Positions 17,334 to 56,607 of a DNA stretch of 57,062 nt are shown here, piece by piece. Position 1 is the stretch's first letter, and each line of letters opens with the position of its first letter. The DNA comes from Sphaeroforma arctica JP610 (lineage: Eukaryota). The position numbers and the translations under genes are program-made. The stretch spans positions 75,722 through 132,783 of the forward strand of contig NW_014040463.1 of assembly GCF_001186125.1 (NCBI RefSeq). The letters run 5' to 3'. Under the pieces are notes generated by a model, which saw only the letters and a list, made by a program, of their open reading frames with translations, was not told the origin of the DNA and did not search any database.

Positions 17334-18516
17334 TTGATTGATATCGGGTAAACTCCGTCGACCTAAAAGTCAGCGGGGGGCTCTGGAATATTGCTCTGCA
17401 CATCAAGGAATATGCAGTAGAAGGCCAGAGCGGTCTTAAGTTTGCTTTATTTGGAGTTCATAGAAGTATGCGTCGTCATATATACGACAAAAAAATATAC
17501 TTGTATAACTTTACCTTAACTGCTAAGTGCATTCCGACAGGAATATCCAATATCTGCTACACTATTAGTGCGTGCCGCTAGGCAATGTTGCTGAGGGATG
17601 CTGGGAAAACAACGTACAATATAAATAAACACAAAACAATGCTTTGCTACACATATCAGGATGGGCGTCGATTGTGTTTTAAAAATCCGTACGGCCACTG
17701 CTTTGTTACAGTCCCCGTTCGCACGCACGGGAACACGTGCACGCATTTCGCAACGAACTCTCAGCATTATAAAGAGCGAAATGAAAAGCAGTCTGCTAGA
17801 GGTTCAATCATCAACACTCAATAGCGTATACATTCTCAACATACTGATGTGCTGTGTACACAGAGACTGCCGTTTGGACGCAGACTTGATATAGGGCATT
17901 ACGTCCTGGGCCAGAGACCCACACTCGGAACAAGTATAACCTTCAGGCAGAACTGCATATTTTTAACAACTTTGCCGCTCGTACTGGCACGTGGACTGCA
18001 GTGTACTGCTGAGGCGTACTTGTATTTACTTTCTTTTATTATTCCATCATTGTTTGAGTAGTGACGGCCAGCTCCCCTCCTGCCAGTGCATTAGATCAAT
18101 GTGAGATTCGAGCGTCGATTAGTATCTTGTGACGTTAGCAATTATAATGATACATTGTCGTGCACAATATAAGTATACTTCATGGATATTTGGAAAATGG
18201 TGCGAAGACACTCAAAGGCGATGTCACAAGGCAGAGGATACAATATCTCCAGCTAGGCCTCCTTCAAAGCTCACATCGGATAGACAAACCACTAGCATGT
18301 CAGTAGTCAAGTGGAATACAAACAAGGCCGAACTGCGCAACAAGTTGCGGCAGGGTATTTGTGAACCCAAGTGCGAGTGGTGGTACTGCAAATACCAAAC
18401 TGAGCAAAAGGTCACACCAGTGCTACATATACACACCATATTACAATTTTCAATAGTCAAAGATATATAATTACCTAAACGACTGCAGGAGTATAAGTAT
18501 GCAGAGTCAAGTTTAC

Positions 18517-18903
18517 CTTCTCTTTTGTGATAGTTAAAACAATCTGTCTGCCCTCCCCAGCGCCCTCGATTTCCCAGAAGCTTTCCTCTGGATCGGACGT
18601 ACTGTGCAACGAGCCCTCGATAATTTCCTCTCCACCGACACACAGCCGCAGAGTTTTAGCCTTTATCGTGCACTGTACACCCTTTGACTTCACAGTGCTG
18701 GCTGTAGGTATGTACACTATCAGTGTAGCTGGGGTCTGTGTCCACGTGTATTTTTCGGTCGTGCCCCCAGACAGCTCTGTATGATCGTCCTTGGGAGTGT
18801 TCTTCTTCTTTGTATCGATCTCTTTTTTTTTCCTGTCTACATCGGCCAACATTTGCTTGTCGCCTTTGAGAGAATCATCCATCATCAGCTTTTTGTATAA
18901 CTC
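18517..18903 (-). CDS. CS (NudC/p23-like) domain exon; downstream exons not resolved
   Basis: GGTTEKYTWTQT...IIEGSLHSTSDPEESFWEIE...IVLTITKEK followed by a GTAAAC donor; matches the NudC CS-domain pattern. Confidence 0.8.
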
Positions 18904-20430
18904 CTTCACATGTGGATAAGTAAAATTATTTGACCGTGAGTTTGTGGCTGTATAACATTCGCTCGATCTCTGAAGAAACCTGCTGCACGATTAATTCTAA
19001 GCTTCCAACGCACCTTCGTTGAAAAGAACAGAAATTGTGTGAACTTTGATAAGCGAACAACTCAAGAGTTAATTCGCTGTGTTCTTAGCTCCCTATCTGA
19101 TTCGGTATATAGCCAAATATGATCAAACTTGTTTCGAATCACTTCCCCAAAGTAAGAGATCGCCTAATGCAAAATTTCACACAACTGTACGCGCCGCGCT
19201 TGGCGTACATACACAGACGTGATTGAACGACGCCTAAAATTTAGGTATTGTCTCATTCTGAACCAGAGATTCATGATTGCAAATGATGTAGAAGGAATGT
19301 ATGTACAGGTTTCTATCTTGGTTGACACACTTTATCATTCGTTTACGCAAGTATATGAATCTGACCGAGTGTTATCTGAAAACCAACATCACCATACTGC
19401 CACGTCGACTGAAACTCTGCTGCAGCTCGAGAATATCGCTGACTCACACTCATGACGATATGCACTTATGCGTCAATTACTTCTACACAAAAAGACGCAG
19501 TAAGGTAATTATATGCACAGCATTCCAAGCACTATACCCTAGTAGACGAATCGCCTACTCAAGACGATAAGAGCACAAAAGGAGACGCTCCGGTATTAGT
19601 ATCAATCCCGGTCGCATAAAGATCGGGACCGAGAACGAGGGTGGTGGTGGGGAGATATGACTCAGATGTATCAAAAAGGTAGACGCCTTATTTGATTTTG
19701 ATGCACTCGATCTCCACTCATTACTCAAGAACTTGTATCAAGGGCGCATTATTGCTATATTGCCTCGTGAAGTACCAATTCATTCATCGCTTGCCAAAAG
19801 GCAGGCATAGGCAGTAGAGCAGGTATAGTGAAATCCATCGACTTACTTGTCCCCTTTAACTCATGTTCAGCTACTGCTCGTTTTGGCTTTTTTGCCGACC
19901 GATGACAGGAACATGACAAAGTAACATAACTCGGTGCTTAATAAGGCTTCACGTGTTAACGTGTGCGATGAACAGCAGCTGGTGTGCTCTCGTATAGTAC
20001 ACCTTGAATAACCTACCATCCATAGCACCATAGTTAAGGACGAACATCTGCTTGCTACATAATTCGATGACTATGGAATAGAGGATTACCTTTCTATTTA
20101 GTCATCGATATCTCGGTCACCAACAAAGCAATAGCCACCTAATAAGCAAAATAATTTCCTGTCCCAACCCTATATGTAATGTTCTTCTAATAAAGTTCTT
20201 ATGTATAATGCTTACAGATATATAGTGTTGTATTTCAAAGAGCCCCATGCTGTAGCTCGAGCTCATTCTGGCTCTGAATTTGTTTTCTACTTCAGCTATT
20301 CCTAAGTCGCCACAGACGCCAAACAGCACATCTCGGATATGAGTCGCTCGGATATGAGTCGAACACATACACCCAACACGTACAATATTATGACCATTGT
20401 GAATATCTGGACGAAATACCATACACATAC

Positions 20431-21159: not shown

Positions 21160-21786
21160 ATGGGCATGTTTGGTAATAACAGTAAGAAGCAACTGGAAGA
21201 TGCTTACTTCCAGATGAAGCTAGCCAGCAAACAATTAGCGAGGCAGTCGGTAAAGGCAGAGAAAGAAGCCAAACAGGCGGAGAATAAGGTGAAACTCAAC
21301 ATGCAGAAGGGCAATCCTGAAAACGCACGGATTTTTGCTGAGAATGCGATTCGTAAAAAGCAGGAATCTGTTAACTTTTTGAGGATGTCATCACGCTTGG
21401 ATGCGACTTCGTCGCGTATACAAACAGCTATCACCATGCAGACTGTCACAAAGTCCATGGGCATGGCCACAAAGGGCATGGACAAGGCATTACAATCTAT
21501 GGATTTGGTTAAAATAACATCGATAATGGAGAAGTTTGAGTCGCAATTCGAAGACCTCGATGTGCAAACGGGTGTTATGGACAATGCCATGTCGGGTGCG
21601 GTGACATCATCTGTACCTGAAGACCAAGTTGAAGCGCTTATATCACAAGTAGCCGATGAGCATGGTTTACAAATGCAAGAAGAACTCAACGCTGTTCCTG
21701 CGGGGAAAACTGCGTTACCTACCATCAGCAACGAGGAGGAGGCTGGGCTATCAGACAGGCTCAAGGCACTAAGGGAGATGGAGTGA
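21160..21786 (+). CDS. CHMP1: ESCRT-III subunit CHMP1/Did2 (Snf7 family), intronless CDS
   Basis: ENARIFAENAIRKK...FLRMSSRLDA...MEKFESQFEDLDV...VADEHGL...LSDRLKALR (MIM1-like C-terminus). Confidence 0.95.
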   Translation: MGMFGNNSKKQLEDAYFQMKLASKQLARQSVKAEKEAKQAENKVKLNMQKGNPENARIFAENAIRKKQESVNFLRMSSRLDATSSRIQTAITMQTVTKSMGMATKGMDKALQSMDLVKITSIMEKFESQFEDLDVQTGVMDNAMSGAVTSSVPEDQVEALISQVADEHGLQMQEELNAVPAGKTALPTISNEEEAGLSDRLKALREME

Positions 21787-24233: not shown

Positions 24234-27200
24234 TTACTCCTTCTTGGACTTCTTTGATTTCTGTTAAAATGCGAGACAAGTACAAGATGAGCAATACATT
24301 CTCACAACGGTGATTCAAGTAAGCAAAGAAATTGAAAGGCAGCTATACACAACCAGATGCGCGTTATACCGTTATACCAGAAAATACACTAGAGTACAGC
24401 CATTTAAACAGACTATTTTCTGCAGACAATATTAAATTCAATTATATCAAAAATGCATTTCTACATTGAATATGTATACGGATCAGCAATGCAACTGGGT
24501 ACAAATGTCCCGATCACACAATTGGTACCTCCCCGCCCTCGCTATACCGTTTCAGTAGCACAATAGATGCCATAGAGATGTTGGCAAGATTGCGACTCTA
24601 AAAAGAAACGGATTGCTACACCGACCACGCGGAAGCAGCATAACTTTGGTGTACAGAACTATAAGTACCCTACTGGTGAAACACATAAAACCACACCATA
24701 ACAGCCGGTTATCAATCGATACACCACCCTTGGGGACGACCATCCCATAGCACTACAACAACTACAATGTACGTATTCACCTACGTGACCCTTAATATAC
24801 CAGCACCAGGTTAAACAGTGGACACATAGGCTTACCTTCTCTTTCTTAATCTTCTTCTCTTTCTTGACCTTCGTCTCCTCGACGGCGACTGGTTCGGATT
24901 CACTACTCTTCTTGGCCTTTTTGACCTTCTTCTCCTTTTTGACCTTCTTACTCGGTTTGCTTTCTTCTGAACTATCCTCCTCCGCTGCACGCTTCTTTGA
25001 CTGTTTAACTGTCGAGTCACCCTCTGTTGAGAATCCCTTGACCTCCTTGGCCTCTATTCTCTCTGCCGCTGCCTCTCCCTTGGCAAGGCCTGATACACGC
25101 ATTGGTCGGCCCTCCATCTGATTAAATCATTATATCAACATTGAAATTCGCGATTAAACTTGGTAAACTGAAAACCAACATATAAATCGAAGTGGGTTTG
25201 TACATGGATGCAGATGTCCTAGCTGATGGGTCATTGATGCTGTGTTAGCCCCAGCATACCCTACTGTTCAACTGCAAATTGTCCATTCTCTGTGAAACTA
25301 TCAACACACCCAATACGTAAAACATTCAAAACTACATACCTGTCCTAACCGAGCCTCCACTTTAGACCTGGCCTCCAAACCAATGGTGACATTATCTTTA
25401 TCTCCTAGTGCATCTACACGCGCCGACAATGAGGTCTTTGCAGCCAGAACTCGTGAGATTTTACCCTTGTTCTTGGGTGCGCATTGACCTACTAATGATG
25501 CGTGGTAGATAAGACCGTACTTGGGTGTATCACTCTTAGTTTTAAGGGCTCTGAATAGGGCCTTTTCAGCGCCCAGGATTTGTACTGTGGAGGCGGGGTA
25601 CTTGGCCAGGTTGAGCAGTGAACCGGCATGCGAGATCAAACGGGCACCAACCAGCTCACCAACCATACACGTCAAATTGGGTGCAATGGCGTTCATTCGC
25701 GCCTTAAGGTAGTCGAATAGCTGTGTTCGGTATTCTCCGATGCTTATAACTTGGTCACATAGGTAAATAATGTTGTCCATATCCTCGGTAGACACCTCAG
25801 TACCCATACTAATCTCAGCAGCCTGCTTAACCTCCTCGATCATTTCTTCGGGCAAAAACTCCTCCAGATCAGTGGCGGATGTGTTCTTTCGGTCTCTAAT
25901 CTTTCGGATGGTCTTGGCAAACGCGAGATTATCAGGAATAATTCGCGAGATTTCTGGGAAATGCCAACCATACCATTCACGTACTCGCATACTATACGTG
26001 TTCAGCTCCTTGTCTAGATCATCAAGCAAAGCTGTAAATTGTGAAGGTGGAAATTCGTTAGATCACTTTTACAATTGCATGACACGACCGAAGATGCACT
26101 AACTATGCTCAATTTTTTTTCAGGGTTGTCTACACTAAATATTTTCCCATATAACAGTATAGCCTTATTCATACTATTGGAACCACTATCGGATCGCCAT
26201 GTGCTAATATCAAAACAGACACAGATAAAAATATGAACTGATATCCGCGTTTCAGAGACTGCTTTTCAAATGTATAGTACGCCTAACCACCCTAAAAAAC
26301 ACATTATATATACAGGTAATGTGTGCTGCATACTTCTGACAAATTTGAATATTTGAATATTGAACATGCGTTACATATATAACTTACAGATAGCCTGGAC
26401 GATCATGGTGTCCACCTTATCGGGCGAAAACTTGAGTTTATAACGAGACAGAGAGTGAGCCAAACCAAGAGACATGGCCTTCATGGCCTCCTCAGAGGTA
26501 CCAGTGACAAGAGTGTCCATTTGTGTTCTGATACCACGCATGAGCTCGTTAATTACGGTCTCGGTGGCTGTGCGGCAAGGGATTTCGAGTTTGTCCTTGA
26601 TAATTCCAGCCAGTTTGGGGTCGAAAACACCGACCTCATCGGACAGTCCCTTCTTTGTGACCCACTTCTTAAGGAATCCCTTAAGATCCTTGTCCATCTT
26701 ACCCTCGACCAATGCTGTAGCGGCTGCAAGGGCTTGAGTGGTGTCCTCGAACTTCTCGAATGCGTGTAGTTTGACACTATAGTACAAATAACACGGAAAC
26801 ACGTGTGCGTATGTACACACACAGGGGCATAATATGGTTGACGTGTGTGAGTTTGTGTTTGTCATGGTTTTCAATCCTTCAAGATTGTATGTATTCATTC
26901 GCAATTCAAATGCTGAATACAATCACCGACGTTCGGTGACCATCTCATCATATAACACAACTCCAATGTACGTACAGAGAACCACCACAAAAGAGCGCTC
27001 CAAGCAGTAAGAATAACATATAAAAGGTGATATAAAAGATACCTATAAAGAATAATTATCAAAACTATCCAACATAGCTTGGATATCAGAATTCCTTCGA
27101 ACCACATTGCTAACGCCAAAGCACTATGATACAAGAACTTACGTCTTAGTGGCCTGTTCAGGGGTCTCGAACGACTTCCAAATATCATCGGGTTTCTTAA

Positions 27201-36079: not shown

Positions 36080-38150
36080 GAGCGTTACCCTTGATAAAAC
36101 ATATCTGCTCAAATGTGGTGCCCGAAAATTTCCTTTCCGACTATCGTCTAGCGCATTTCCTGTCATTGAAAAAACACTTTCTAACCTACAAGATGTGGGT
36201 GAGATTGAGAACAGAAATTAATACCACCAGGTATAAGGTGGGCATTTGCACTCTGTGATCCCTCCATAACTCCATCGCTTGTTCGGGGGGATCCATTTCT
36301 TTCTGTTCATACTTTGCTGCTTGACCTCTGCCGACCTTCACCTTAACCATATTGTTAATCTGTAGTGGTAGAGACTCCCATGTCACAATTTCGGCAGCGA
36401 TCTTTTTTTTTTCATTAGGGTAACGTAGTCGGCCTGGGGTCTTGTTGTATTTTGCTCGAACAATGGCTTCGGTAAGTCACAGCTCCTCGTACTTGCTATT
36501 AACTTTCGTCTTTTGTGTAAGTATGTTTCTTTAGTAGTTTCTTCCGTAATGTTAGTTGGTGTGGTAGCAGCGGATGTGGCCGTCGCTATACCGCCTTGTG
36601 TTTTCTTCTGTGTTTCGTCTCTAGGCTCTATGCCCATCTTTTACTTGCGATGGGTCTTCAAGAGTTTTAGAGTTCGTTTGGACACAGAATCTTTCGCAAA
36701 GTTTTTGCAGTCAAGTGTATCGATCGTAGACAACACCAAACTATTCATTTCTTTGTCCAAAGGGTGCAAATAGTAATGAACAAGCATTTCCGTATCAGGT
36801 TTATGCTCGAAATAGGTATGTAAGCAGTCCCTGAGCCTTCTTCGCAAGCTTCTAATCTCTGGCGTTAGGTGCTCCACGCTATATTGCTCAATTACATCAG
36901 GAGTCCCCGAAACCTTTACCACATCTACCAGAGAATCCTTGCCCAAAGCAAACTTACAAGTCATTACAAGTTCGTTCGCATCTGCCAATGATTGAAACAT
37001 TTTTTTGTATACCAATTTGTTCAAACATCAACGGCTGGAGTACCACTATTAATTCCCGGCGCATCTGTTTCATCCGAGGCGAACACTTACAATTACGTTC
37101 CCTGACCTTGCCGTCTTCGCCGTGCCACAGTCCTCCTGGACCATTCTCACGTGGATCATCCGAGATACTTTTCAGAACCGGATCAATCAAGTCATTACGC
37201 TTGGACATTTTGTACCAGCTCAGCCAACAAGTAGGCGAGCTAGTGATAAGTCTCTTCACACTTTCATCCGCCTTCTCCTGTGCTAAAGCTTGTGCGTCAG
37301 CAGCAACAGTACTCTTGTTAAAAAAGGCTGCTCGTCTTGCTATGTTGCGGATTAATGCCTCAATCGGAGCTGAGTCATACATTTGTTGCTGTATATCTTC
37401 TACACCGGGGTCCATATTGATTAGTCGCTCAAAGACATCCAGTTGATCGTCTACATCCTCGTTGTGCAGATCTTCACTAAAAAATCCCCTAATCTGATCA
37501 GAAGCTGTGATAAACTCTCCACCGATTGAATTCTTGAGACTCAGTTGTATACGATGTGCCATACATTCGGCTACATACACAGCGGTGTCTTCTATAGCTT
37601 TCATTGCATTGGTCGCGTTGCCCAGCGTTCCACTATGAAAAATATCTGTCATTTTTAAAAGCAATCCCCGGGCAAACGCAGTATTCTCCAAGGGGTTCAA
37701 AAAACCCATTACGCTGCCACTCGACTAGATTTGAGGAATAGTGGTTTCCTCAGATCTGAACTAATCCAACGAAGGCGGTATGATGAGTAACGCCATCTAG
37801 ATTGTTGTAATGTATTAATGAAGGATACGGGTGCAGTATAAGTAGAGCAAACTATCATAGGGACTTGCCGAGCAAGACTTATCCACGTCTTGATCTCATC
37901 TTTCTCTTCTAGACTCACGGTAGATCGTACTTACATACATTCACGGCCCATTGTATGTCGCTGAGTTTCGCATTTGTGAAAGTGACTTCTAGTGTAGATG
38001 TATTCTTGGTACCATCTATGACCGCGAAATTGAGTTTTTTTTCTGCTTACAATTGGTAGCGGCCGCGATTATCTTCTTACACTCCTTGTCTAGGCCTGCA
38101 ACCCATTCTTTCAGATGACTCGTTGTGTAATGGGCGATGGCTTCCCTCCC
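36080..38150 (-). pseudogene. Decayed hAT-superfamily DNA transposase
   Basis: CMAHRIQL (CxxH), SPTCWLSWYKM (TRWNS-like), YYLHP, and dimerisation region W....QMPTLY / SPTSCRLESVFSMTG; broken by several frameshifts and stops; TIRs not identified. Confidence 0.85.
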
Positions 38151-38384
38151 TTAGGCCTACTGATTTTCTTCAATCTCTATTATCCTTCAGATCTATCGCT
38201 GTGCAGGGCCAAAATATGAATAATACGTCGATTCCAAAATTTCATATTTCCAATATTTTCACATTATATGCTAAATATTCTCATATCTCTATATTCTCAT
38301 AATATGACCGCGATGGGCGACACCAAATTTGTCTCATAATCCTTACTCATTTTTATGAGTTTCCAGGTTTGCTCTGTTGACGCT

Positions 38385-38471
38385 TTAACGCTTGTTTTGC
38401 TGTACTTTTCTACTCTGCTAGATAAATAATTTCATGGGAAAATTCGGTCTGAAAATGAAACTGCTTCGAGA
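38385..38471. repeat. Satellite-like ~176-bp repeat, left part of the unit split by the LTR element
   Basis: ..gaaaattcggtctgaaaatgaaactgcttcgaga matches the uninterrupted copy near 56517-56540. Confidence 0.85.
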
Positions 38472-38714
38472 TGTAGTAAGTCGTAAAGATAACTGTACCT
38501 CAATGTACTCCACTCGTACAAGGGGAGGCGTTGTTCATTTATTGAACTATTCCTTACACTATATTTTGATCATGTGTTTTCCTACTCAGATTTACTCTGA
38601 ACGGATAAACCCAGTTTCAAAATATAGTCTCTAAGCCCCTAATACTAATTAAACCCTAGTACTAAGTAAACCCTAATCCCCAAATAAACCCTGTCCAGGG
38701 ACCTCCTGACTACA
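38472..38714 (-). repeat. 3' LTR (243 bp)
   Basis: TG...CA bounded; 38581-38714 matches 46651-46783 with about 7 differences. Confidence 0.85.
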
Positions 38715-38722
38715 ACCCCCCC
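38715..38722 (-). other. Polypurine tract
   Basis: GGGGGGG-T immediately before the TGTAGT start of the 3' LTR on the minus strand. Confidence 0.75.
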
Positions 38723-38911
38723 AAGCTGAAGCACAATTTGTGGGCCAGCTTTAAAAATTCGAAGGAGTATCATGAACAGGTTAGTGTGCTGGCATTTATC
38801 CTCAAATAGCTAGAGAGCTCGGTTATTTATTCACCACTCGCGCTGGTGACTAAACATTATGTACATATAACTAACCTAATATATGTATATCTATAAACAA
38901 CTGGATGCTAT

Positions 38912-40200
38912 TTACAACTGGTCACTGCGACGTTTCCTGGCTCGTGTCTGTGTATCCTTATGATAAGCTACAATGTCATTCGCATCGTCAAAAGCATCGG
39001 CTGTTTCCCATGTTGGCACTCCCTCACGCCAACGTACAAGGTATTCCAGCTTCCCCGTATCATCGTTCGTCCGATGTTTGGTAATGTGACGGGATGCTGC
39101 GCCACCTTCATGCCACAGATCATCGTGCAATGAAGAGTCTGTACTGCGGTGGACCAACCGTTGTAACTCTACGCGAATCGGTTTCCCTTTAAACTCCTGG
39201 GGGGTGAACCCATCTCTATGTGTGAGATCATAGCCCTGACCGTTGCGACGTTTGACTACATACGGGCCAAACAGTGGGCACATAGTTTTGGAAGTGCGTC
39301 CCTCCGACTTCACCATTACTACATCACCTTCCTCGAAGTGAACCAAATCATGAGCATGTGGACGGTCAAATATATTCGTTAACTTGTCCGTATATGTCGT
39401 AGTGATCTTATGCAACGTAGACAAAATCGTATCCTGCAACTGGTCCAGCCGTTGTGCCCACGTGTCATTGGTCACGGGTTGTTGCTCGGGAACATCGTGG
39501 GTAAAATCCGCAAGCGGAACATGACGGCGGCCGAAATATAGGCGCTTTTGTGTCGTCGGGAGATACGCAAATTCTGGTAAAGCATGGTAAAAGGTAGCCG
39601 TTCGTCCCATGCCTGAGGTACTGCCTCACAGTAGATGCGTATAGAGCGTGTTATCTATTTGTGTCAACGATCTGTTGCGCCCAGTACTTGCGGTCTGTAT
39701 GGTGGTGAGACCTTATGGAGTATACCCACTTCTTTGACAATAAGAGCTACCATGTTATTAGTGAACTCCGTCCCCATGTCGGTATGCAGCTTGCGTGGGA
39801 ATCCATGTTCACCGAAGATGGCCAGTAACATTTGAGCGGTTGTTTCCTTAGTCTTATCGGGTGTGGCGCGTAATATCGAATTTCCGGATGCGACGTCTAA
39901 CATGTGTAAAACAAATTTATTCTGTCGGGAGGATGTCACCGCCATTGAGATATAGTCCACCTGGATATGGTCCCATGGGGACTTCGCATCAATACTCATC
40001 ATCGGATAGAACCCTTTACGCAAGGTGTCTTGGCCCAAACACTGACCACATTGCCGTTTGATTTCAGTAGCTAGTTCTAACGCCCCCGGCCAGACATGTC
40101 CGTTCCGTTGCAACTGCTGGACAGTATCGGCGGCACTGTGATGGCCTTGCTCATGATGCGCCTGTGTAAGTTGTGTCCGCCGTTGTTGTTCCATCGGAGT
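38912..40200 (-). pseudogene. DDE integrase with HHCC zinc finger, GPY/F motif and C-terminal chromodomain
   Basis: HEQGH...CGQC, WDHIQVDYI, LHTDMGTEF, PYRPQVLGATDR, LFGPYVV, ITKHR...LEYLVRWREGVPTWET; stop and frameshift near 39540-39665. Confidence 0.93.
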
Positions 40201-40369
40201 GGCATTCACGAACGCTGGTTGTGCCGCTTCACTACTCAACGCAACGGAAATCTCCCGCGCAGAGTCCAAACATTGATGGTGTGGTGTGTGACGAGGCTCG
40301 GCGTATCCTAACCGTTGGGTGAAGCTCTCTGCTAGTTGGAATCCCGACGGTGGGCCCACTCGTGCCACC

Positions 40370-40755
40370 CCCGTGTGGCCCATGGAGGGTTCCCGCAAGC
40401 ATACTTCGCATATTTCCGAAATGTATGCGGGGTTCGGGGTACTACCACAGGCTCGGCTTCCAGTAATGATTTAAAGAGGTCGAACCATGGTGCTCGAGGG
40501 GTCCAAGGTAGGCATACCGTTGCCGTGGCTCCATCTGTTTTGATCTTCCGTAGCATGCGGTGTATCAGTTTCCATGGCGTGTTCATCCATCCATCGACCA
40601 GCGCCCAGTCATGGTCAAACGCCCCATTGCGGTCATTCTTAGTTCAGAACCTGGGCAGCTGAGCGCTGTGAGGTGCTGCGAATACGTCTATATTGTTATG
40701 GCCAAAGATAAGTTGAGTCTGTTCAAAATAGCTGGTAAATAGTTGCCAGTAGTCT
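40370..40755 (-). pseudogene. Dam-like DNA N6-adenine methyltransferase domain (DIRS-MT/phage Dam type) within Pol
   Basis: One frame with a single TGA: DYWQLFTSYFEQTQLIFGHNNIDVFAAPHSAQLPRF*TKNDRNGAFDHDWALVDGWMNTPWKLIHRMLRKIKTDGATATVCLPWTPRAPWFDLFKSLL. Confidence 0.88.
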
Positions 40756-40799
40756 GCATACAGCACCTCTGGTACATCCGTCTCCGCCGTTCCTTCATG

Positions 40800-42880
40800 T
40801 ATCCGACTGAGCATGCCCGGCAGTACGTTCTTCTCCCCCGGTATATGCGAAATAGTAAAATTAAAAGGCGCTATGATATGATGCCTACGTTGTAACATAG
40901 GGCTAAGTTTCAGTTGGGTGTTCATATATGCTAAGCCTTGTGGTCCGTAAACACCGCGAAGCGTTGTTCCTCGAGGTAGTCGCGGAAGTGTGTCAACCCA
41001 TAAACGAACGCCAGGAGTTCCTTCATCGGCGGTGCATAGTTCTGCTGAGCGTAATTGAGGGTCTTACTGAAGAACATGGGGTAGTGTTTTGTGCCCTCCA
41101 CCCACTGAAATAGCGCTCCCCCTAGTCCGTAGTCACAAGCGTCCGTCTCGAGGTTGAGTGGGACGTTATCTACTGGGAAGTGTAATGCTACTACGTTCAC
41201 TATCGCATCCTTCATCGCTTGCCAAGCGTCCGCACGGCGTCGCTCCCACCTGTCTCCTATCAGTTCGTTTGGTTTGAGCTTACAGAATTCACGTAGTGGC
41301 GCCACCACGTGTGTAAAATCGGGTAGGTGCTCGTGCAAGAAATTAGCCAGGCCCAACGCTGAGGCAATGTCCTTGTACCGCTGGGGTGTTGGCCAGTCCA
41401 GAAGTTTGGCCTGTTTCTCAAAGTCGACATCAATCCCCTTCGCCAAGACTTTCTTGCCCAGTATCGTAACTTCCGCAATTGCGAAATGACACTTGGCCGG
41501 ATTCAGTTGGAAGCTATGGTATGTCAGTCTCTTGATCACCTCCTTCACTGTAGCCACGTGTTCCTCGTAATCGTCGCTGGCTATTACTATGTCGTCGATG
41601 TAGTGGTGGACTGGCAAACCATCGAGTATCGTACTAAGTGTTCGTTGAAATTGCTGTGTCAGCACGTGCAAACCGAATGGTGCCGATGTGAACGAGTACT
41701 GGTATCTGTCGTGTATGAAGCTGAACAGATATCTAGAGTCGGGATATATTGGGAGTCTATGATATGCTGCCGATATGTCGAGTGTAGTATAGTACTTCCT
41801 ACTTTTTAATCTAGAAATGACCTCATTCACTTTCAGTATCAAGAACTGGTCTCCTGGTCTCAGTGCGTGACCGCTCGCATATCTAGGCAGACGCGTACCT
41901 TCTTAACGTTGCCCTCACTGTCGAATGTCGGAACCGCTAGAAGTGGTAGAGTCGGGATGTATTGGGAGTCTATGATATGCTGCCGATATGTCGAGTGTAG
42001 TATAGTACTTCCTGCTTTATACTCTAGAAATGGCCTCATTCACTTTCGGTATCAAGAACTGGTCTCCTGGTCTCAGTGCGTTGACCGCTCGCATATCTAG
42101 GCAGACGCGTACCTTCTTAACGTTGCCCTCACTGTCGAATGTCGGAACCGCTAGAAGTGGAAGATTATCCGTCGTCGGTCGTACGCTTCGTGATCACCAA
42201 GTCTTTTATCCATTTCTGTACTTGTTCGTCGACGTACGGAAGCCATCGTGTTGACCTTTTCATGCTCATTGCTTGCTCGCGGGTTATTGGTATCGCCACC
42301 TCACTCTCCTCTAAGCGACAACGTGCATTGTCCTCAATAGCGACATTCGTTTCTAAAACTGTGGCAAGTCGTGCCCGCACTCCGTCTGGTTCGGTAATGT
42401 CGGGGGCCTGGCGGCGAGCCACTTGCTTGAGAAGGTCGTCGAGATCTGTTGGGTCGATAGGTATCAACGGTGATTGTATCCCTCCCAGGTATATCCTATG
42501 TTAGGCACCATATCGAACCCAAGTATGATATTGATGCCGTCGGGTAGATTCTTTAGTTCAAACGACCCGTTGATAATTCCGGAACCATAGCGTATCGGTA
42601 GTACCTCTATTGTTCCCAGCCGAGGAGTACGGGCTGCCTTGTCTGCTAAGCATATGAACGAACCGGTTGGTGCTGGTGTGATTGGTCGTCCTAAAAGGTC
42701 TGCGGATGACCGAGCAATGCAGCTACGGTTGGCACCTGTGTCCACCATCGCACGGAATGTACGCCCATTCACTTGCAGTTGGATGTAGACACGGTTATCG
42801 GAAGACAGCAGTGGGTCTTGGATCGCCATTGCTGCCTGCCATATATGTGTCAGCGTAAGTGCTACATCATCGTCGGTCAC
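40800..42880 (-). pseudogene. Pol: aspartic protease, reverse transcriptase and RNase H (frameshifted)
   Basis: AMVDTGA; LDISAAYHRL, APFGL, YIDDIVI; LETDACDYGLGGAL, ELLAFVYGL, FTDHKA, HIPGEKNVLPGMLSR. Confidence 0.96.
41734..42160. repeat. 213/214-bp tandem duplication disrupting RT
   Basis: 41734-41946 repeated at 41947-42160 with several substitutions and a 1-bp indel. Confidence 0.93.
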
Positions 42881-42889
42881 CCTGACGTC

Positions 42890-45095
42890 TCAGGGTTGCT
42901 CCGGGAACGGGGTCCATGACGACTGTGGTGTAGTCGGATAGGAATCGTCGCCTTGTCCAGCTTCCTCCGTCAAGATCGAATGTATATGTATCTCTGTGGC
43001 AGACTGGGTGTCGTTCCGGGGGACGTCCTCTTGTGTGACCACATTAACCTGTGGTGTGGACGTGTTTGTCGTTGGCTGCCTGTTGGAAAACTGCGACTGG
43101 TGGCGTTCTTTCCCTTGCGGTAGCGTTGTACGTTGCGACGACTGTATGTCTCTGCTGTGAATATTGGTATCTGACGATCGCGATCTATTGTCCTGCACCC
43201 CTGATTGTGCCGCCCTGTAATGGTGACACCGTGGTATGTGTCGGAGGCCTGGAGGTGCTTGCGCCCGGCAGCCGTTACATGTGGTTGCTGTAGCCGTCGC
43301 TGTTGGCCGTTGTTGCCACTGTTGGTGTTGACGTTGACCTATATGGGGGCTGGGTCGACCTGTTGCCTCACTTCTGCCTGTGTTCCCATTGTGACCACGA
43401 CGATTCGTTAGACTTTGTGTGGAACGTATCTGTGCCTCTTGGATATCCGGGTTCAGTAGCTGTAGTAACTCGTGGGTTTCCATCAGTTGCCATTTAGGGT
43501 GCAACTGCAAGGTACGTTCATATGTACGCGAGCCAAGAGTATCCTCCAAGAGTTGAACGATGCAGTAAGTTCTGCTTGAACTCGGCATCTGTTTGACAAC
43601 GCTCATGTGCTCGACGGTGCTTATCCATTAGATAAGTCATCTGTTCCATTACTGGGACGTTGCTGATCTTGAGATGGCCCTTCGCTAGCTTACGAAAGGT
43701 CGGGTCGACCGTCGCCTGAGTCTCATGTGAACAAACTTGCGTAATCTGCAACTCGGGAGTCCACGCCACTAGACGTTGATGATTGGATTTAATATATTCA
43801 AGTGTGTATTGTTCAGCTTTGAAATGACTCAACACTTTGTAGAACCCCAACCCTGATATCTGTGCGTTCTTAAGGGCCTCTCGTAAAGCCCCTTTTGTAT
43901 CGCGCTCCATGATGTTGCTAAGGTTGTATCTGTTAGAAGACCATTCAAGCCAGCTACGAGGTTCTCGTGGCTCCTGTTTGTTCGTTGGACGAGAATCATG
44001 CTTTGCCCGTAGTGTCTCGAGCATGCCTCGTAATGCCTCTGCACGTGGTAAGCTATTAGCCTCAACCGCACTACATAGTTCTTCCGATAGTTTAAACATT
44101 CGTGCGTGTAAAGCCTGACGATCGGCTGCTATACTTTCCGGTGTTGGGGGTGTATACTGCTGGTCGAGTCTTCTACGCTTATCTGCCGATACTGATTGAC
44201 TCGACGGAGTAAGTTCAAGCATCCGTTGTGCCGGTAGCATGTGGCTGAGCGTCTCTTGCTCGAATTGGCGACCTTGTCGTCGTGTGTGCAACGATGCCTC
44301 CATGTTATCGCGACGGTTATCCAATGCTTCTCTACCATGAGGGTTCTCCTGAGCCCGGTGTTGTTCTTGTACAAAGTCATGTAGCGATACTTTGTCCTGC
44401 GGCGCCTCACTTCCCTCCTGGTCCGACGATGTATAACCTAATCCCCGTCGCGACTGGTCTGCCCCTCGGATGCGAAACTTTAAGTTGTCGGATGTCTGAA
44501 GTGTGGTAGATCGTCGTAGGCGCTGTAGACGTCGGTCATACTTCTCTAACAAAGATTGTTGACGGCGGAGGAGACTTGTCAGCTGTTCTGGAGTGTCGTT
44601 CTCTCGATCTCAGTTCTGTCTCGTTCCTCTGGGACGATTACGATGACGTCTGCCCGTTGTGTTGTTTACACCCACTCTCACTGTCGCCGTAGCCTGCAGA
44701 TGGTTCTGTGTTGCCAAACGTGCGGCTCCCATTGCCTCGGGGGTCCCCAACCCCTGTTCCGTGAAGTCTACATCACTAGGTGTAGTAATTCTCTCAGTAC
44801 GATTCTGTTGTGCCATCAATGTACGTTGAAGTACCGACTGATTATTCCGGTGTTCTTAGGTTGTTCGGACGTCCTCCGTCCAGAGCTATTCGTTCTTGGT
44901 GCTGTCGTCTACGTCCGCGCTGATGAATGTTCTCGCGTTCGCGCTGCTCCGGGGGGAGCTGCTGCTGTCGACGGCTTTGTCATGTGTTGGCCATACTCAA
45001 TCGTAGCTTATTGTTTTATTTTTGCGATAAACAATGTGATGTTGGGGGACTTCTTCTTTTGTCTTAATACTCGACGTCCCCATGATCCCATCTTC
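42890..45095 (-). pseudogene. gag-position ORFs (344 aa, 238 aa and upstream fragments)
   Basis: Long ORFs directly upstream of the protease; atypical Cys/His cluster CNGC...HIPRC; assigned by position only. Confidence 0.65.
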
Positions 45096-46650
45096 TAAGT
45101 TATGTGATCACACAACCCATCTCATTCATGTGATATATTCTTGTACCGCGGCCTTATTGCTTCGATGTTGTTCGTCTTGATCGGTCTTGCTCCTTGTCTG
45201 CCCCAATTATCGTAACGAGTACTCTTCACTCTTGTAGATGCCCCGGACTCACGACTCACGTGCGCTTACTCCCTTGATGTGGCTCCGTACTCTCTCCATG
45301 ACTACTCCATCTCACTACTGCGCTTGTTTTTACTCTCTTAAACCGTACCTCCTTACGCATCTCTAGCCTATCCGCAATCACGGTGGTAGACTGCGCTTCT
45401 ACCCCGTTTGACGAACCCTCATTCGCTTCTCACACGCAAGACTCGTAATCTCCTCAGAATCTCTGGGTGTTCCCCGCACACAATGTCACTACACCACAAA
45501 CATTTTCACTCTCACTAACACATATCTTACTCACCGTTTTACTTCTCCTGTGTCAGCATTTCTCCTACACGTACTTATGTCCTAATGTGTTCGTCTGTAA
45601 ACTCTATGAACCTTTCATGCGCATGTGCAACCTTCGATGCGCTAGCATCTAATATCCTGTATAGTGTGTAGTGTGTGTCCTAAGACTTTATCTCCGGTGT
45701 ACTTGACTATGTTCTCTCCTATTTATCTACTTCTGTTAGCGTGTGCACAAAGTCTATCCTTTTGCTATGTTGGCTTCCTGTATCATGTGATGTGTGGTTG
45801 TGTGTATCCAGAGCCCTATTTGTTCTTCTTGTGTCCCTTAACCTCTCATGCCTTACCTAATGTCCTTACTTCTAACTCCTCGTTTCCACTTAACAAGTTT
45901 AGACAGCACTTTCTATACACAGGTCTACGTAGTCAACACTAAGAACAACCTTCACTGTCACACTAGTGCGTGTATCCTCTTTACGTACCTTGTCGATGTT
46001 CCTATTGCTTCCCAACTGGGTGCAGTTTTCAACTAAAGACACCTACCTAAAAAATTTCTGCACTCTTCTTTTGTCGCTGTTTACGTCCTGCTGATGTATC
46101 GCCGTCCAATCCGGTGTATAACCAAATCGATGCGATGGAATTGACCTTAGTGTCCATGTCGATGTTGGTGTTGGTCTCTTTTGATCTTGGCCCAACCCTT
46201 CCTATCTCCTAATTCTATTAGTTCCGGGTGTCGTTTCCAGTGGAACCTTCCCTTCAGACTTCCTCTATTTGCTTTCTGGTGACACCACCCTAACATTCAA
46301 TCGGGCGGGATGACTGCGATTGTATAACATCTGTCTACGATTATGTAGTTCCTTTCGTCTTGTGGTTCTCTCAATTTCCTGAGTTCTCCTAACTTCTTCT
46401 GGTTCTGATGCACTGCTTTCGCTTGTTAACGGTGCTGGCATACTGTCACTAGTGTCACTGCTTACGAAACCACTGTCTGTACCGTCTTCTCTTCGCAATT
46501 ATATTCCATGGGACGCCATTTCCGTGGTCGATGTCGATGTTTGAGTAATCTCTTTCCTCCCTTTTCTAATATAAAATTTGATTTTGGGCCCCCGCTAGTA
46601 TCTATTCCTCTTCAGTATATGTTCAATAATGTCCAACCTATAAGTAAGCT

Positions 46651-46783
46651 CCTACTCGAATTTACTCTGAACGGATAAACCCAGTTTCAAAATATAGTCT
46701 CTAAACCCCTAATACTAAATAAACCTTAATACTAGTAAACCCTAATCCCCAAATAAACCCTGTCCAGGGACCTCCTGACTACA
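46651..46783 (-). repeat. 5' LTR, only the outer 133 bp clearly recognisable
   Basis: Matches 38581-38714; ends ACTACA followed by the GAGA TSD. Confidence 0.85.
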
Positions 46784-47100
46784 GAGAATATGGCATGGCA
46801 TAAGTACATCGCCCCTATTGTATCTTTAGGTAGTATCGGAGCAACGTCTGCTGGAAGGAATAAGCTCCGCTGATACTTTACCGCTTGTTTTTATGTATTT
46901 TTCTACTTTGCTAGATAATCTGTTTTTGTGAATACTCAATCTGAAAATGGAACTGTTTCGATTACATGGTATGCCATAAGTACAGCACCCTTAGTTGGTC
47001 TTTAGATAGTATCAAAGCAACGTCTACTCGAAGGAATAACCTCCGTTGATGATCTAATGTTTTTTTCTGAATTCTTCTAATTTGCTAGACAATTGGATTC
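46784..47100. repeat. Satellite-like repeat, ~176-bp period, about 2 diverged tandem units
   Basis: taagtaca at 46801 and 46977; shared gcaacgtct.ct.gaaggaataa and tttgctaga blocks. Confidence 0.85.
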
Positions 47101-47454: not shown

Positions 47455-47890
47455 TCTGGATATGGACTAAGGTTTGACCCTGAGATACTTCCACAGCCGG
47501 TAGCTTTCGCTGATGCAAGCTTTGCCTCTGACACAACAGACCGTATTCAACTAGTGGTTACGTCATTTTTATGTGCATTGCACCTGTGATTTGGGGATCA
47601 AGAAAACAGAAATTGACGGCATAGTCCACGTGCGAAGCAGAAGTTATTGCTCTGAATGATGTCACACAGGAAATCAGTTGGCTGCGAAATTTATTTTCGG
47701 AACTTGGTATCGACATTGAACCAATTGTCATCAATCTAGACAACCAATCGGCGAGAAAATTCGCTGAAGATGATAAGGTGAACCGCAGAATCAAACACCT
47801 TGACTTTCAACACTATTTTATCCGGGATAGGATTCAAGACAATTCAGTTGTACTACGATACATGCCCATGGACGAGATGATTGCTGGGGC
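47455..47890 (+). pseudogene. Ty1/Copia RNase H relic
   Basis: AFADASFASD, (S)TSGYVIF, VIWGSRKQ, STCEAEVIAL, DNQSA, RIKHLDFQHYFIRD, EMIAG; one frameshift and one stop. Confidence 0.92.
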
Positions 47891-48499
47891 AATTGTTTGT
47901 GAAACACAAGACAACCATGGTCAGGCCAAGCATGTCATATTTAAGTTACGTACTTTACGTTTTCTTATTTAGTTTTGGAACAGTTTTTAATTGTAATTGC
48001 TTATTAAGAAATCTGTTTCCAATATATTGCATATATATTAATCTAAAATTGGCTACAATGAACTAAAATTACGATTTCTCTATCACATGATAAATTATTA
48101 AGATTAAGAGATACCTGTCATGTTAATATCATTTCTTTTTTATGATATCCTTTCTTCTTAAATAAAATTTCTTAATTAAGAATGTGTTGCCCGTGTATGT
48201 CCTTTCTTAAATAATTATCACATTAAAGCGTGAAATTTTCTTCATATTTCTTAAAACTTAATGTTGTTGACATACAAATCTCGTTTTTATACTAGGTACA
48301 ATTCAGTATAAACTGTTTGTATATGTTTAACACATGTTATGATGTCTAGTTTACAACTGCACATTACGCAACACAATCAACTCAAAGTACATAGAGCCCC
48401 CGAGTCCGAGTCCTGAACGTATCCGGAATATCGCGTAAGTACTAAGTACACCATCAATTACCATTGTTAATATGGGTGCTACCTCTGGTTCTACTTCTC

Positions 48500-52049: not shown

Positions 52050-52450
52050 CGCCCTTATTTTATATTCAGGTAGTCTCAGAGCAACGTTCGCTCAAATGAA
52101 TAAGCTCCGTTGATACTTAAACGTTTATTTATCTGTATTTTTCTACTTTGCTAGATGAACGATTTCTTGGGGAAATTCTGTCATAACTTACGACTTGTTC
52201 TTTCAATTCTTTCAACAGTACTCTTCCAATTCAGAGTAGCTCTAAATATGTGTATAACTTGATACGTAAACGTTTATTTTTCTGTATTTTTCTACTTTGC
52301 AAGATGAACGATTTCTTGGGAAAATTCTGTCTGAAAATTAAACTGCTTCAAAAAGATGACATGGTATAGGTACAACGCCCTTATTTTATCTTAAATTAGT
52401 GTCAGAGTAACGTCTGCTCATAGGAATGAGCCCTGTTGACGCTTTTAGCT
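52050..52450. repeat. Satellite-like ~176-bp repeat copies with an internal rearrangement
   Basis: gcccttattttat..gagcaacgt..gaataagctccgttgatact..ttctactttgctagat..gggaaattctgtc, as at 46784-47100. Confidence 0.85.
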
Positions 52451-54349: not shown

Positions 54350-56490
54350 GACCATTCCTTAGTAGCTTTCGAAGTTAATAAAACTCTTGCCAACCGCGCA
54401 CGTACCGCTAGCGGCCTTTGGGCAAATGGTGAATCCCGAAACAACTAATTAAGTGTCCCACCGTCTCCATCTCCGACTCTGTATGTTTTTCTGCATGAAA
54501 TTAGTCTATGTATGTGCGAAGTAGCCTTACTACTTTCCTTTTGTAGCCAAGTACATGCATTACGGGACCTTCATGTGCTGTGACCGTAGCTGGGTAATAC
54601 CACTTGGCCCGCAACTTATGACTACCTATGTCTTTCCAGAAACGAACTATCGTTCCCACCGGTAGTTGTGGGGTCTCAATTCTACCCCTGTCCGTATCCC
54701 TCTGCTGGGCTAATCTTTTACGTTAATCCAGTCTCACTGCTATCCTATCTCTTACCAGCGTGCTCAAACCAGTGTCATTCACAAGCATTTCACCAATTTT
54801 AACTTGTAAAGACATTCGTTGAGGTCCATCATATATCCTCCCAGTATGTAGGAAGTATGGTGAGAAGCCTGTCTGCGGCACAACTGCTGCATTGTATGCC
54901 AGGGCTGCCGCATACACTTTGTGCACCCAGTCATGGTAAGTTGAAGAGTCATTAAGACTCGCTGTCCACTCGGATAATTTGCGGATTGCTCATTCCGCTC
55001 TCCCATTTCTTACATGGTGCCCAGTTGTACTTAAATGTACATAGATGCCATTGTTCAAGGCAAACTGCTCAAATACCAAACTATCAAATTCGGTTCCTTT
55101 GTCAGCAGCTTTTCTTCTGGGTAGTCCCCATGAGAGTTTTTATTATCTCACGAATTTTATGATTCCCAGTGTATTCCGCAAAGTCGCCGTAAATGCACTA
55201 ATCCTTAGCAATTTGGACATTTCATTAACTAGAACCAATACCGAAGTTTCTCCCTTTGGGGCTTGAGGTAAGTCTACAAAGTCATTACTCCAATTTGCTG
55301 TTATTTGTATGGTTTGTTCCGGTTGCTGTAATAGTCCTAAAGCTTCTGGAGGAGGCCTCCCATATTGTTGATAAGGTGTCCACACTCTTCCTATCATTCT
55401 TATCTGCGCACGAAGTCCTTTCCACCCAAGCACGTCCTCTGTCAGATGCTCTAGTCTCTTCTGTGCCGCATGAGCATAAGTTACGTGCGAATATTGCAAT
55501 GCCTTTACCACTTGTGCTCCCGTCAGCGCTGTTCCCCATATTGTCCTAGAGGGGCACTGCATTAAGATAGGCCAGGGATCAACCTTTCCAGGTACTGCGA
55601 TCTGCTTGGGTCGTGAGACTCTTACGCCTTCTTGCATTAATTCTTTCTGCACAGCTTGCTCAGCTTGCCCCTTTTCGCCCAGCATTGTAGCCATTGGTGT
55701 CTTAGTTGCCTGATGCTCCACGTATCATTTCTCTGCGCGCGTAATGGATTGTTCCAACACCGATCGTTCCACGAACTGCACTGGCTCACATGCACCTATG
55801 AATTTCGCCGCCGCCTCCTGTGTCTTACCCACTCTCACATTTTTTTTTGGATTGACTAGCTACAATGGTTGTTTCTCTAGTTCTGGCGCTTCCTGAGACG
55901 CTTTCACCACTTCTTGGCGTTGCAATATCTCACAGTCATTCCATAAGTTTTTTTATTTGCTTGAACTTGCGTGGCCCAAGCCTACATATTATGGTTACAA
56001 AGGAAGGGGGTCCAGTTTCATCATGACCGTGCTTGTTGAATACTTAGTGTGTGGCCAGTAAGAGCAAGACAGAGTACACCACGCCTTCTCTGCTTGTGCC
56101 TTTTACAGTACCATCGACAACAATGTCCAGTGTGGGTTAAAGAACCAATTTATAGTAGGGTCGCCCCAGTGCATACAAAACACACCTCCTTCTAAGCTAG
56201 GCACACAGTAGAAAGGTAGCACTTGGTTACCTGGCAATGCGAATCCATCAGCGGGATGTGGCCCCCATAGTTTCTCAGCTCGCTTAAAGTACTGAGATGT
56301 CAACTGGTATTCTATTGTCGACGCTATACTAATCGATGGTTCTGAAAAATTAACTCGCAAATCCTTGTTTTCTCTTGATATCCGCATAATAGGATCTAGG
56401 GTAACACATAGCCGAGACATTACATCGGCCACTGGATTTTGATCTCCAGGTATGGGAATGATTTCTACCTCAAAGTCTCTGATCACATCA
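54350..56490 (-). mobile_element. 5'-truncated, heavily decayed second Ty3/Gypsy-type element: RNase H end, Dam-like MTase, integrase
   Basis: DFEVEIIPIPGDQNPVADVMSR (RNase H end); MTase motifs; HVTYAH (zinc-finger start), WSNDFVDLP, DKGTEFDS, AYNAAVVPQTGFSPYFLHTGR, KLRAKWYYP. Confidence 0.88.
55990..56312 (-). pseudogene. Dam-like N6-adenine methyltransferase domain of the second element
   Basis: EYQLTSQYFKRAEKLWGPHPADGFALPGNQVLPFYC...GVFCMHWGDPTINWFFNPHWTLLSMVL*KAQAEKAWCTLSCSYWPHTKY. Confidence 0.82.
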
Positions 56491-56505
56491 TAATATCAAC
56501 CAAAA

Positions 56506-56607
56506 TGATTTCTTGGGAAAATTCTGTCTGAAAATGGAGCTGCTTGGAGAATATGGCATGGCATAAGTACATCGCCCTTATTTTATCTTTATGTAGTATC
56601 GGAGCAA
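56506..56607. repeat. Satellite-like repeat fragment that shows the empty insertion site
   Basis: gaaaattctgtctgaaaatggagctgcttggagaatatggcatggcataagtacatcgccc spans the point where the LTR element interrupts the other copy. Confidence 0.88.

What the first reader, a model, noticed from the sequence alone, without database searches (positions are those of the whole stretch)
38912..41842. Integrase-type (Ty3/Gypsy) LTR retrotransposon with a Dam-like DNA N6-adenine methyltransferase between RNase H and integrase
Seen: right after the RNase H end (HIPGEKN...LSR) the same frame reads YWQL...FG...IDVFA.PHSAQLPRF*T...GAFDHDW...WMNTPWKLIHRMLRKIK..GATATVCLPW.PRAPWF. It is followed by an HHCC/DDE integrase, a GPY motif and a chromodomain, all inside TG...CA ends with a TSD. 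Established: D.FA...N..L.RF / AF...W / NPP[WFY].LI...L.K / P.W...W is the signature of the phage-Dam-like adenine MTase found after RNase H in DIRS (tyrosine recombinase) retroelements, and canonical Gypsy Pol has no such domain. Inference: this is a Gypsy lineage that carries its own 6mA writer plus a chromatin reader in one polyprotein. It could methylate its cDNA or integration site for protection or to mimic host active-chromatin 6mA. I do not know of a description of this architecture, but I cannot check the literature. This copy is decayed, and its catalytic motif reads NTPW, one base (ACG vs CCG) from NPPW.
Basis: partly seen in the sequence, partly recalled or inferred. Interest (0 to 1): 0.93.

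Follow-up and report, generated by a model that had tools for sequence, protein, structure and literature searches.

The report
Known methylase-carrying jumping gene, decayed copy
This is a broken copy of a Ty3/Gypsy jumping gene that carries an adenine-methyltransferase-like domain between RNase H and integrase; the kind was described in a May 2026 preprint, and the only additions here are a divergent chromodomain that the preprint says this lineage lacks and a predicted fold closest to the RNA cap methylase PCIF1.

Summary
Observation confirmed. An 8.3-kb minus-strand Ty3/Gypsy element (38472-46783, TG...CA, 4-bp TSD) reads PR-RT-RNase H-Dam-like MTase-integrase-chromodomain. The MTase hits Pfam Dam (E 4.8e-6), folds confidently as a methyltransferase and sits in the same place in intact single-ORF relatives. 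RT and MTase trees both group it with Abeoforma elements, so it is not a nested DIRS scrap. The novelty claim fails: bioRxiv 10.64898/2026.05.21.726589 describes DAM-LTRs, with and without chromodomains, including an ichthyosporean lineage, and proposes the same 6mA model. This scan found the kind before in other genomes. Two small additions. (1) The preprint says the ichthyosporean lineage lacks chromodomains, yet this element, its Sphaeroforma relatives and an Abeoforma polyprotein carry a divergent one. In this element it lacks two of three cage aromatics, so 'chromatin reader' is unproven. (2) The closest solved fold is the cap m6Am methylase PCIF1 (Z 10.1), above T4 Dam (7.2), so RNA or hybrid substrates are plausible. 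Activity is untested here, and the preprint's E. coli assay was negative. This copy is dead.

The parts
38472..46783 (-). Whole Ty3/Gypsy DAM-LTR element, 8312 bp, TGTAGT...ACTACA ends, inserted in a dispersed host repeat unit
38468..38471 (.). Target-site duplication, left copy (GAGA)
   Evidence: uninterrupted repeat unit with a single GAGA at 56547-56550
46784..46787 (.). Target-site duplication, right copy (GAGA)
38472..38714 (-). Downstream (3') LTR, 243 bp
   Evidence: follows the polypurine tract
38716..38722 (-). Polypurine tract (G7 on the sense strand) just before the 3' LTR
46650..46783 (-). Upstream (5') LTR, only the first 134 bp match the 3' LTR (94.8%); the remaining 108 bp are absent and no adjacent primer-binding site was found
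42893..44609 (-). Two broken open frames in the gag position (no Pfam hit; gag identity inferred from position only)
42494..42805 (-). Aspartic protease (DTGA at 42742-42731)
   Evidence: Pfam gag-asp_proteas E 9.6e-8; tblastn with P0007
41450..42178 (-). Reverse transcriptase (YIDD at 41602-41591), broken by a 214-bp tandem duplication (41734-41950 / 41947-42164, 96%)
   Evidence: best PDB match is Ty3 RT 4ol8, E 5e-38
40806..41248 (-). RNase H, with a frameshift near 40934
40371..40757 (-). Dam-like (PF05869) / PCIF1-fold adenine methyltransferase domain; one stop at 40646-40644; motif NTPW at 40583-40572
40039..40155 (-). Integrase HHCC zinc finger
39541..39996 (-). Integrase core (D at QVDY, D at TDMG, third acid reads D), with stops and a frameshift
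39260..39268 (-). GPY motif of the integrase C-terminal SH3-like region
38960..39094 (-). Divergent chromodomain: chromo fold, W45 kept, Y24 and Y48 equivalents absent, loop shortened

Best explanation
This is a dead copy of a Ty3/Gypsy LTR retrotransposon of the ichthyosporean DAM-LTR lineage, whose Pol carries a DIRS-type adenine-methyltransferase domain between RNase H and integrase and a divergent chromodomain at the end; in intact relatives the domain likely methylates adenine in the element's own replication intermediates. Shown: domain order, LTR ends and TSD, a methyltransferase fold, an NPP[W/F] motif kept across the clade, and matching RT and MTase groupings. Inferred (and proposed by the preprint): the MTase is packaged with RT, puts N6-methyl groups on single-stranded or RNA:DNA-hybrid cDNA, and the new insertion then attracts host AMT1 maintenance of 6mA and stays transcribed. 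Inferred: the chromodomain helps tether integrase to chromatin, without the usual methyl-lysine cage. Identity of the element about 0.95; this mechanism about 0.45.
For: Pfam Dam hit here and in 53 of 60 aligned relatives. AlphaFold pLDDT 89, pTM 0.83. VIA-align top hit PCIF1 6irx Z 10.1, rmsd 2.9 over 127 residues, with adenine MTases below. Intact PR-RT-RH-Dam-INT single proteins exist: P0007, P0015 (Abeoforma whisleri), P0020, P0022, P0042. 17 of 150 best hits have an integrase downstream of the MTase, 12 of them among the first 19. NPPW/NPPF is found in 103 of 150 hits and in 14 of the 15 clade members aligned. Against P0007 the RH-end+MTase stretch is as conserved as the integrase (34.8% vs 34.4%). 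The preprint reports more 6mA-marked and more expressed DAM-LTR insertions in S. arctica and A. whisleri. [quoted passage not shown]
Against: The preprint's DIRS, DAM-LTR and adintovirus domains gave no 6mA gain in dam-minus E. coli. Iyer et al. judged DIRS1 MTase copies likely inactive (PMC4738411 passage). The 6mA enrichment is a correlation and could come from host AMT1 alone. No activity, expression or methylation was measured here. The MTase tree's bootstrap had not settled. This copy has a stop, several frameshifts and NTPW, so it cannot itself do any of this.
Confidence: 0.45

Rival explanations
1. The domain works like PCIF1/CAPAM on RNA: it N6-methylates the cap-adjacent or internal adenosines of the element's own transcript, to stabilise, translate or package it, and the DNA 6mA on insertions is host-made.
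For: PCIF1 is the top structural match by Foldseek (ranks 1-6, TM 0.64-0.69, E 0.007-0.045) and by VIA-align (Z 10.1; T4 Dam 7.2, E. coli Dam 6.8). 16 of 60 relatives hit Pfam PCIF1_WW at E <= 0.1 (best 3.3e-5). Iyer et al. place DIRS1 MTases in the PCIF1 clade. It would explain the negative E. coli genomic-DNA assay. The preprint's text never mentions PCIF1 (0 occurrences).
Against: By sequence the domain is closer to the phage PF05869 family (53 of 60 members, best E 2e-18; PHROG 111 'DNA methyltransferase' for 3 of 4 proteins, not the window's own). The PDB profile search gave no usable hit for that family, so PCIF1 may simply be the nearest solved cousin. The domain is 134 aa against PCIF1's 482 and matches only PCIF1 residues 492-649. 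A shared fold shows no function.
Confidence: 0.22
2. The domain is non-catalytic or nearly so and is kept as a nucleic-acid-, SAM- or Pol II-binding module, or as a structural spacer between RNase H and integrase.
For: Negative heterologous assay; Iyer et al. passage; the preprint says the domains align to only part of prokaryotic Dam; 47 of 150 hits depart from NPP[W/F].
Against: NPP[W/F] is kept in 14 of 15 clade members, and D-x-F-A is near-invariant in the 60-sequence alignment. That is hard to explain for a spacer.
Confidence: 0.28
3. The segment is a one-off DIRS fragment nested in an ordinary Gypsy copy, or a chance motif match.
For: The window's own Pfam Dam score is just below the curated cut-off; one contig joint per run skips 39717-40811.
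Against: 848 relatives at E <= 0.001. Intact single-ORF relatives have the same order. RT and MTase trees both place the window with the integrase-bearing Abeoforma clade, away from integrase-less DIRS-like proteins. Sibling contigs cover the domain in 4 of 4 runs.
Confidence: 0.02

Closest known systems
Ichthyosporean DAM-LTR lineage (Fernandez-Moreno et al., bioRxiv 10.64898/2026.05.21.726589; Pirum, Abeoforma, Sphaeroforma arctica)
   Same: Ty3/Gypsy RT, Dam-like domain, integrase, NPP motif. The best MTase hit is S. arctica SARC_07150 (63%), the next is A. whisleri, and the window groups with them at 97/90.
   Different: The preprint says this lineage lacks chromodomains. This element, S. 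arctica relatives and A. whisleri P0015 carry a divergent one that mostly scores below a 1e-5 Pfam threshold. The preprint's figures and supplements were not visible to me.
Chlorophyta DAM-chromovirus-like clade (same preprint)
   Different: A separate lineage by the preprint's trees. I did not have named members of that clade's LTR elements in my trees.
DIRS (tyrosine-recombinase) retrotransposon MT domain
   Same: Same domain, directly after RNase H; most of the 150 best hits with an RT have this integrase-less layout (40 of 56).
   Different: This element has a DDE-type integrase, direct LTRs, PPT and TSD, and a Ty3-type RT.
PCIF1/CAPAM cap m6Am methyltransferase
   Same: Closest solved fold (Z 10.1, rmsd 2.9, 127 residues); same clade according to Iyer et al..
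   Different: 14% identity; only the catalytic core matches; cap specificity untested.
Group II retrotransposon chromodomains of plant Gypsy elements (PMC3350952)
   Same: Chromo fold at the integrase C-terminus, W45 kept, Y24 and Y48 absent.
   Different: Different host group, and the loop after W45 is 3-4 residues shorter; common ancestry with plant group II was not tested.

Membership tests
Ty3/Gypsy LTR retrotransposon | Order PR-RT-RNase H-integrase | tested here: met
Ty3/Gypsy LTR retrotransposon | Ty3-type RT | tested here: met
   Best PDB match Ty3 RT, E 5e-38; RT tree side with all 14 integrase-bearing rows, split 99/96 from 38 integrase-less rows
Ty3/Gypsy LTR retrotransposon | Direct LTRs with TG...CA, PPT, TSD | tested here: met
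   the upstream LTR is only partly preserved
Ty3/Gypsy LTR retrotransposon | Primer-binding site next to the 5' LTR | tested here: inconclusive
   The 3' part of the upstream LTR is missing; none seen by eye
DAM-LTR (2026 preprint) | PF05869-type Dam domain in a Ty3/Gypsy Pol | tested here: met
   E 4.8e-6 here; above the curated cut-off in intact relatives such as P0007 and P0015
DAM-LTR (2026 preprint) | Asn-Pro-Pro catalytic triplet | tested here: met
   Met for the family (14 of 15 clade members; sibling contigs); this copy reads NTP
Ichthyosporean DAM-LTR lineage | MTase groups with Abeoforma / Sphaeroforma elements | tested here: met
   18-row set at 97/90 and 97/96; RT 11-row set at 93/93, not starred
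Ichthyosporean DAM-LTR lineage | No chromodomain (as stated in the preprint) | tested here: not met
   Chromo fold predicted and matched. Named A. whisleri and S. arctica proteins also carry it, so the statement, not the membership, looks wrong
Ichthyosporean DAM-LTR lineage | 6mA enrichment and expression of insertions | not testable with these tools
   Only contigs were available
DIRS retrotransposon | Tyrosine recombinase instead of integrase; DIRS-type RT | tested here: not met
   Integrase present, RT Ty3-like
Group I (methyl-lysine-reading) chromodomain | Aromatic cage Y24, W45, Y48 | tested here: not met
   Only W45 is kept here and in S. arctica relatives; cage definition from PMC3350952
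EpiLTR (Dam + DNMT + chromodomain) | Additional cytosine DNMT domain | tested here: not met
   Pol ends just after the chromodomain and about 200 bp before the 3' LTR; no DNMT hit in the ORFs scanned
PCIF1/CAPAM cap methyltransferase | Cap-dependent N6 methylation of RNA | not testable with these tools
   Fold resemblance only

The most novel reading that the evidence does not exclude
The 'Dam' of DAM-LTR and DIRS elements is a minimal PCIF1-like enzyme that methylates the element's own RNA (cap or genome) or RNA:DNA hybrid rather than duplex DNA, and ichthyosporean DAM-LTRs pair it with a cage-less chromodomain that targets integration by a non-methyl-lysine route.
Probability: 0.2. Interest if true: 0.65.

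Novelty: already known. Interest (0 to 1): 0.2.

Why it matters
The architecture is real and bears on how transposons exploit 6mA-marked active chromatin in unicellular relatives of animals, but it has been reported, in this same lineage. What this copy adds is a correction and a lead. The ichthyosporean elements are probably writer-plus-chromodomain elements too, missed by a Pfam threshold. The PCIF1-like fold suggests why the published duplex-DNA assay failed and which substrates to try next.

Tried and rejected
No whole genome is held, so no copy census or dN/dS was done. A word-indexed search for longer relatives of the MTase found none among 50 candidates, which is weak evidence and was overturned. 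PHROGs gave no hit for the window's own domain. A PDB sequence-profile search with the MTase alignment gave no usable MTase hit (PCIF1 only at E 0.92, on a 35-residue stretch). The PDB profile search with alignment A3 was swamped by RT and said nothing on the chromodomain. Foldseek gave no match at E <= 0.001 for either model; the assignments rest on probability, TM/rmsd and VIA Z. No RNA holder was listed, which is no evidence on expression. Whether this copy's lesions are true decay or assembly errors stays open: the second read-laying did not complete. ApT and GATC content of the element is unremarkable. No tRNA gene lies in the window. bioRxiv 10.64898/2026.10.22.757692 (PCIF1 screen) has no mention of retrotransposons or DIRS. 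Tree placement of the second relic's MTase was unresolved (long branch). 5 of 16 C-termini tested (P0007, P0009, P0010, P0020, P0042) did not exceed the shuffle maximum with my chromodomain profile, though they align by eye.
Full report
1. Observation. The RNase H end (HIPGEKN, 40847-40827) and the MTase motifs (DYWQL 40754, IDVFA 40691, NTPW 40583, CLPW 40514) share one frame, broken by one TGA at 40646-40644. Pfam on 10 window translations gives aspartic protease (E 9.6e-8), RVT_1 (7.5e-19), RNase H (2e-24), Dam PF05869 (4.8e-6; 26.8 bits against a cut-off of 28.1), Integrase_H2C2 (1.8e-4), rve (7.5e-14) and Chromo (0.0021, under cut-off). The two gag-position frames had no hit. The element spans 38472-46783, with TGTAGT...ACTACA ends, a G7 polypurine tract before the downstream LTR, and GAGA on both sides. 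It interrupts a dispersed host repeat, and an uninterrupted unit at 56547-56550 has GAGA once, so the 4-bp TSD is supported by an empty site. Only 135 bp of the LTRs match (128 identities, 6 mismatches, 1 gap); the other 108 bp occur once in the window. The copy is dead: frame breaks between PR and RT, in RNase H, at the MTase end and in the integrase, a 214-bp duplication in RT, and D for the third integrase acid.

2. The MTase is real and belongs to the family. phmmer over 1.84 billion representatives found 848 relatives at E <= 0.001. The best are Sphaeroforma arctica SARC_07150 (63%) and an Abeoforma whisleri protein (41%). Of 29 hits chosen for a Pfam scan, several are uninterrupted PR-RT-RH-Dam-INT proteins (P0007, P0015, P0020, P0022, P0042), and some have a chromodomain above cut-off (P0006, P0043, P0049, P0096, P0140). 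With local profiles, 17 of the 150 best hits have an integrase after the MTase, 12 of them among the first 19. NPPW or NPPF stands in 103 of 150 hits and in 14 of the 15 clade members aligned. Contigs of four runs laid on the region differ from this copy at its lesions: NPPW in 4 of 4 runs, a sense codon at the stop in 2 of 4, and one-base differences at three frameshifts in 4 of 4 (contigs only, 40 of 510 variant rows shown). Whether the lesions are decay or assembly error is open.

3. Trees. RT tree (57 rows: the window plus the 56 of 150 hits with at least 120 RT residues): the window lies with all 14 integrase-bearing rows, split 99/96 from 38 integrase-less rows, in an 11-row set (93/93, not starred) that holds both A. 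whisleri RTs. The best solved match is Ty3 RT (E 5e-38). MTase tree (65 of 151 rows; 86 lower-ranked hits without classifiable RT or integrase left out; bootstrap not fully settled): the window pairs with SARC_07150 (100/99) inside an 18-row set (97/90) with the A. whisleri proteins; a 42-row rerun gave 97/96. The 'DIRS-like' label for integrase-less rows is inferred from layout; I did not see their recombinases. RT and MTase travel together, which rejects a nested scrap. The host is likely an ichthyosporean, inferred from these relatives only.

4. Fold. The MTase model is confident (pLDDT 89.2, pTM 0.83). Foldseek ranks PCIF1/CAPAM structures 1-6 (TM 0.64-0.69, E 0.007-0.045). VIA-align over 48,161 chains gives PCIF1 6irx Z 10.1 (rmsd 2.9, 127 residues), then RNA MTases near 8, M.TaqI 7.3, T4 Dam 7.2 and E. 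coli Dam 6.8. By sequence, 53 of 60 aligned members hit Pfam Dam and 16 hit PCIF1_WW weakly. Iyer et al. (PMC4738411, passages) put DIRS1 MTases in the PCIF1 clade and thought them inactive. [quoted passage not shown] So 'Dam-like' names a family, not a proven duplex-DNA substrate.

5. Chromodomain. The C-terminal model (pLDDT 88) matches CBX/HP1 chromodomains with probability 1.00, rmsd 1.5-2 over about 50 residues and about 30% identity in the tightest rows, though no E <= 0.001. Eight of its 9 close relatives are named S. arctica proteins and one is unnamed (42-73% identity). Pfam Chromo hits 6 of those 9 at E <= 1, but only 1 at E <= 1e-5. A profile from five Pfam-confirmed chromodomains outside the clade scores the window 23.9 bits, A. 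whisleri P0015 26.0, and 11 of 16 clade sequences above the maximum of 800 shuffles (6.8). The window and its S. arctica relatives keep W45 but lack the Y24 and Y48 equivalents and have a shorter loop; P0015 keeps F at the first position. That resembles group II retrotransposon chromodomains (PMC3350952, passages), so canonical methyl-lysine reading is unlikely for this family.

6. Mechanism. Best reading (0.45): the MTase rides in Pol, N6-methylates adenines in replication intermediates, and primes host AMT1 maintenance at the new insertion. This is the preprint's own model, backed there by more 6mA and expression on DAM-LTR insertions in S. arctica and A. whisleri, and weakened by a negative E. 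coli assay. Rivals: a non-catalytic module (0.28), a PCIF1-like RNA methylase (0.22), a one-off insertion (0.02). Every functional step is inferred.

7. Prior art. The first literature search returned bioRxiv 10.64898/2026.05.21.726589; I read the whole main text, but not its figures or supplements, which may bear on the chromodomain point. It claims the first Dam domains in non-DIRS LTR elements, counts chromodomain-bearing LTRs as 30.9% of DAM-TEs, and names an ichthyosporean lineage (Pirum, Abeoforma, S. arctica) that 'lacks chromodomains'. Its stated hmmsearch threshold of 1e-5 would miss most of the domains I found (inference). Searches (listings only) showed no other description of these elements or of a chromodomain in them; PMC5890265 (passages) mentions Dam only in DIRS. 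Earlier scan notes report the same kind in other genomes and cite the same preprint; none cover this place.

8. Verdict. Real, correctly read, already known. The residual value is a probable correction (ichthyosporean DAM-LTRs do have a divergent chromodomain) and a substrate lead (PCIF1-like fold). Interest 0.2.

Noticed in passing
window 54849-56500, minus strand: A second, much more divergent DAM-LTR relic: RNase H end (IPGDQN...SRL), MTase 56318-55998 (own profile E 9.6e-16; motif NPHW; one stop; 25% identical to the first; no Pfam hit alone) and integrase 55265-54849 (E 2e-8). It is cut at about 56503 by the host repeat, and it did not group with the first element's clade.
   Followed up: partly
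window 38371-38471, 46784-47100, 52050-52440, 56504-56607: A dispersed repeat of about 100-180 bp; the main element inserted into one unit, and another unit abuts the second relic.
   Followed up: partly
proteins P0027, P0036 (unnamed): Different layout: protease - APE-type endonuclease - Dam - RT - RNase H - integrase in single proteins of 2100-2400 aa. May relate to the LINE-like RT DAM-LTRs that the preprint mentions for Euglena; not tested.
   Followed up: no
proteins P0086 (Cymbomonas tetramitiformis) and P0142: RNase H - Dam followed by a weak Tudor/Agenet-like hit.
   Followed up: no
window 36957-37724, minus strand: 256-aa frame that looks by eye like a hAT-type transposase fragment (label recalled; no Pfam hit).
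   Followed up: no
window 47625-47972, plus strand: Fragment that reads like a Ty1/Copia RNase H (label recalled).
   Followed up: no
window 15849-17330, 21160-21783, 24662-26922, 18478-18990: Host genes that look like a Ser/Thr kinase, an ESCRT-III (CHMP1-like) subunit, Nop58 exons and a NudC-like protein (labels recalled from the translations), with TA/TG-rich microsatellites between them.
   Followed up: no
window 44900-46650: About 1.7 kb of purine-rich (sense strand) sequence between the partial upstream LTR and the gag-position frames; a long leader or an unrelated insert.
   Followed up: no
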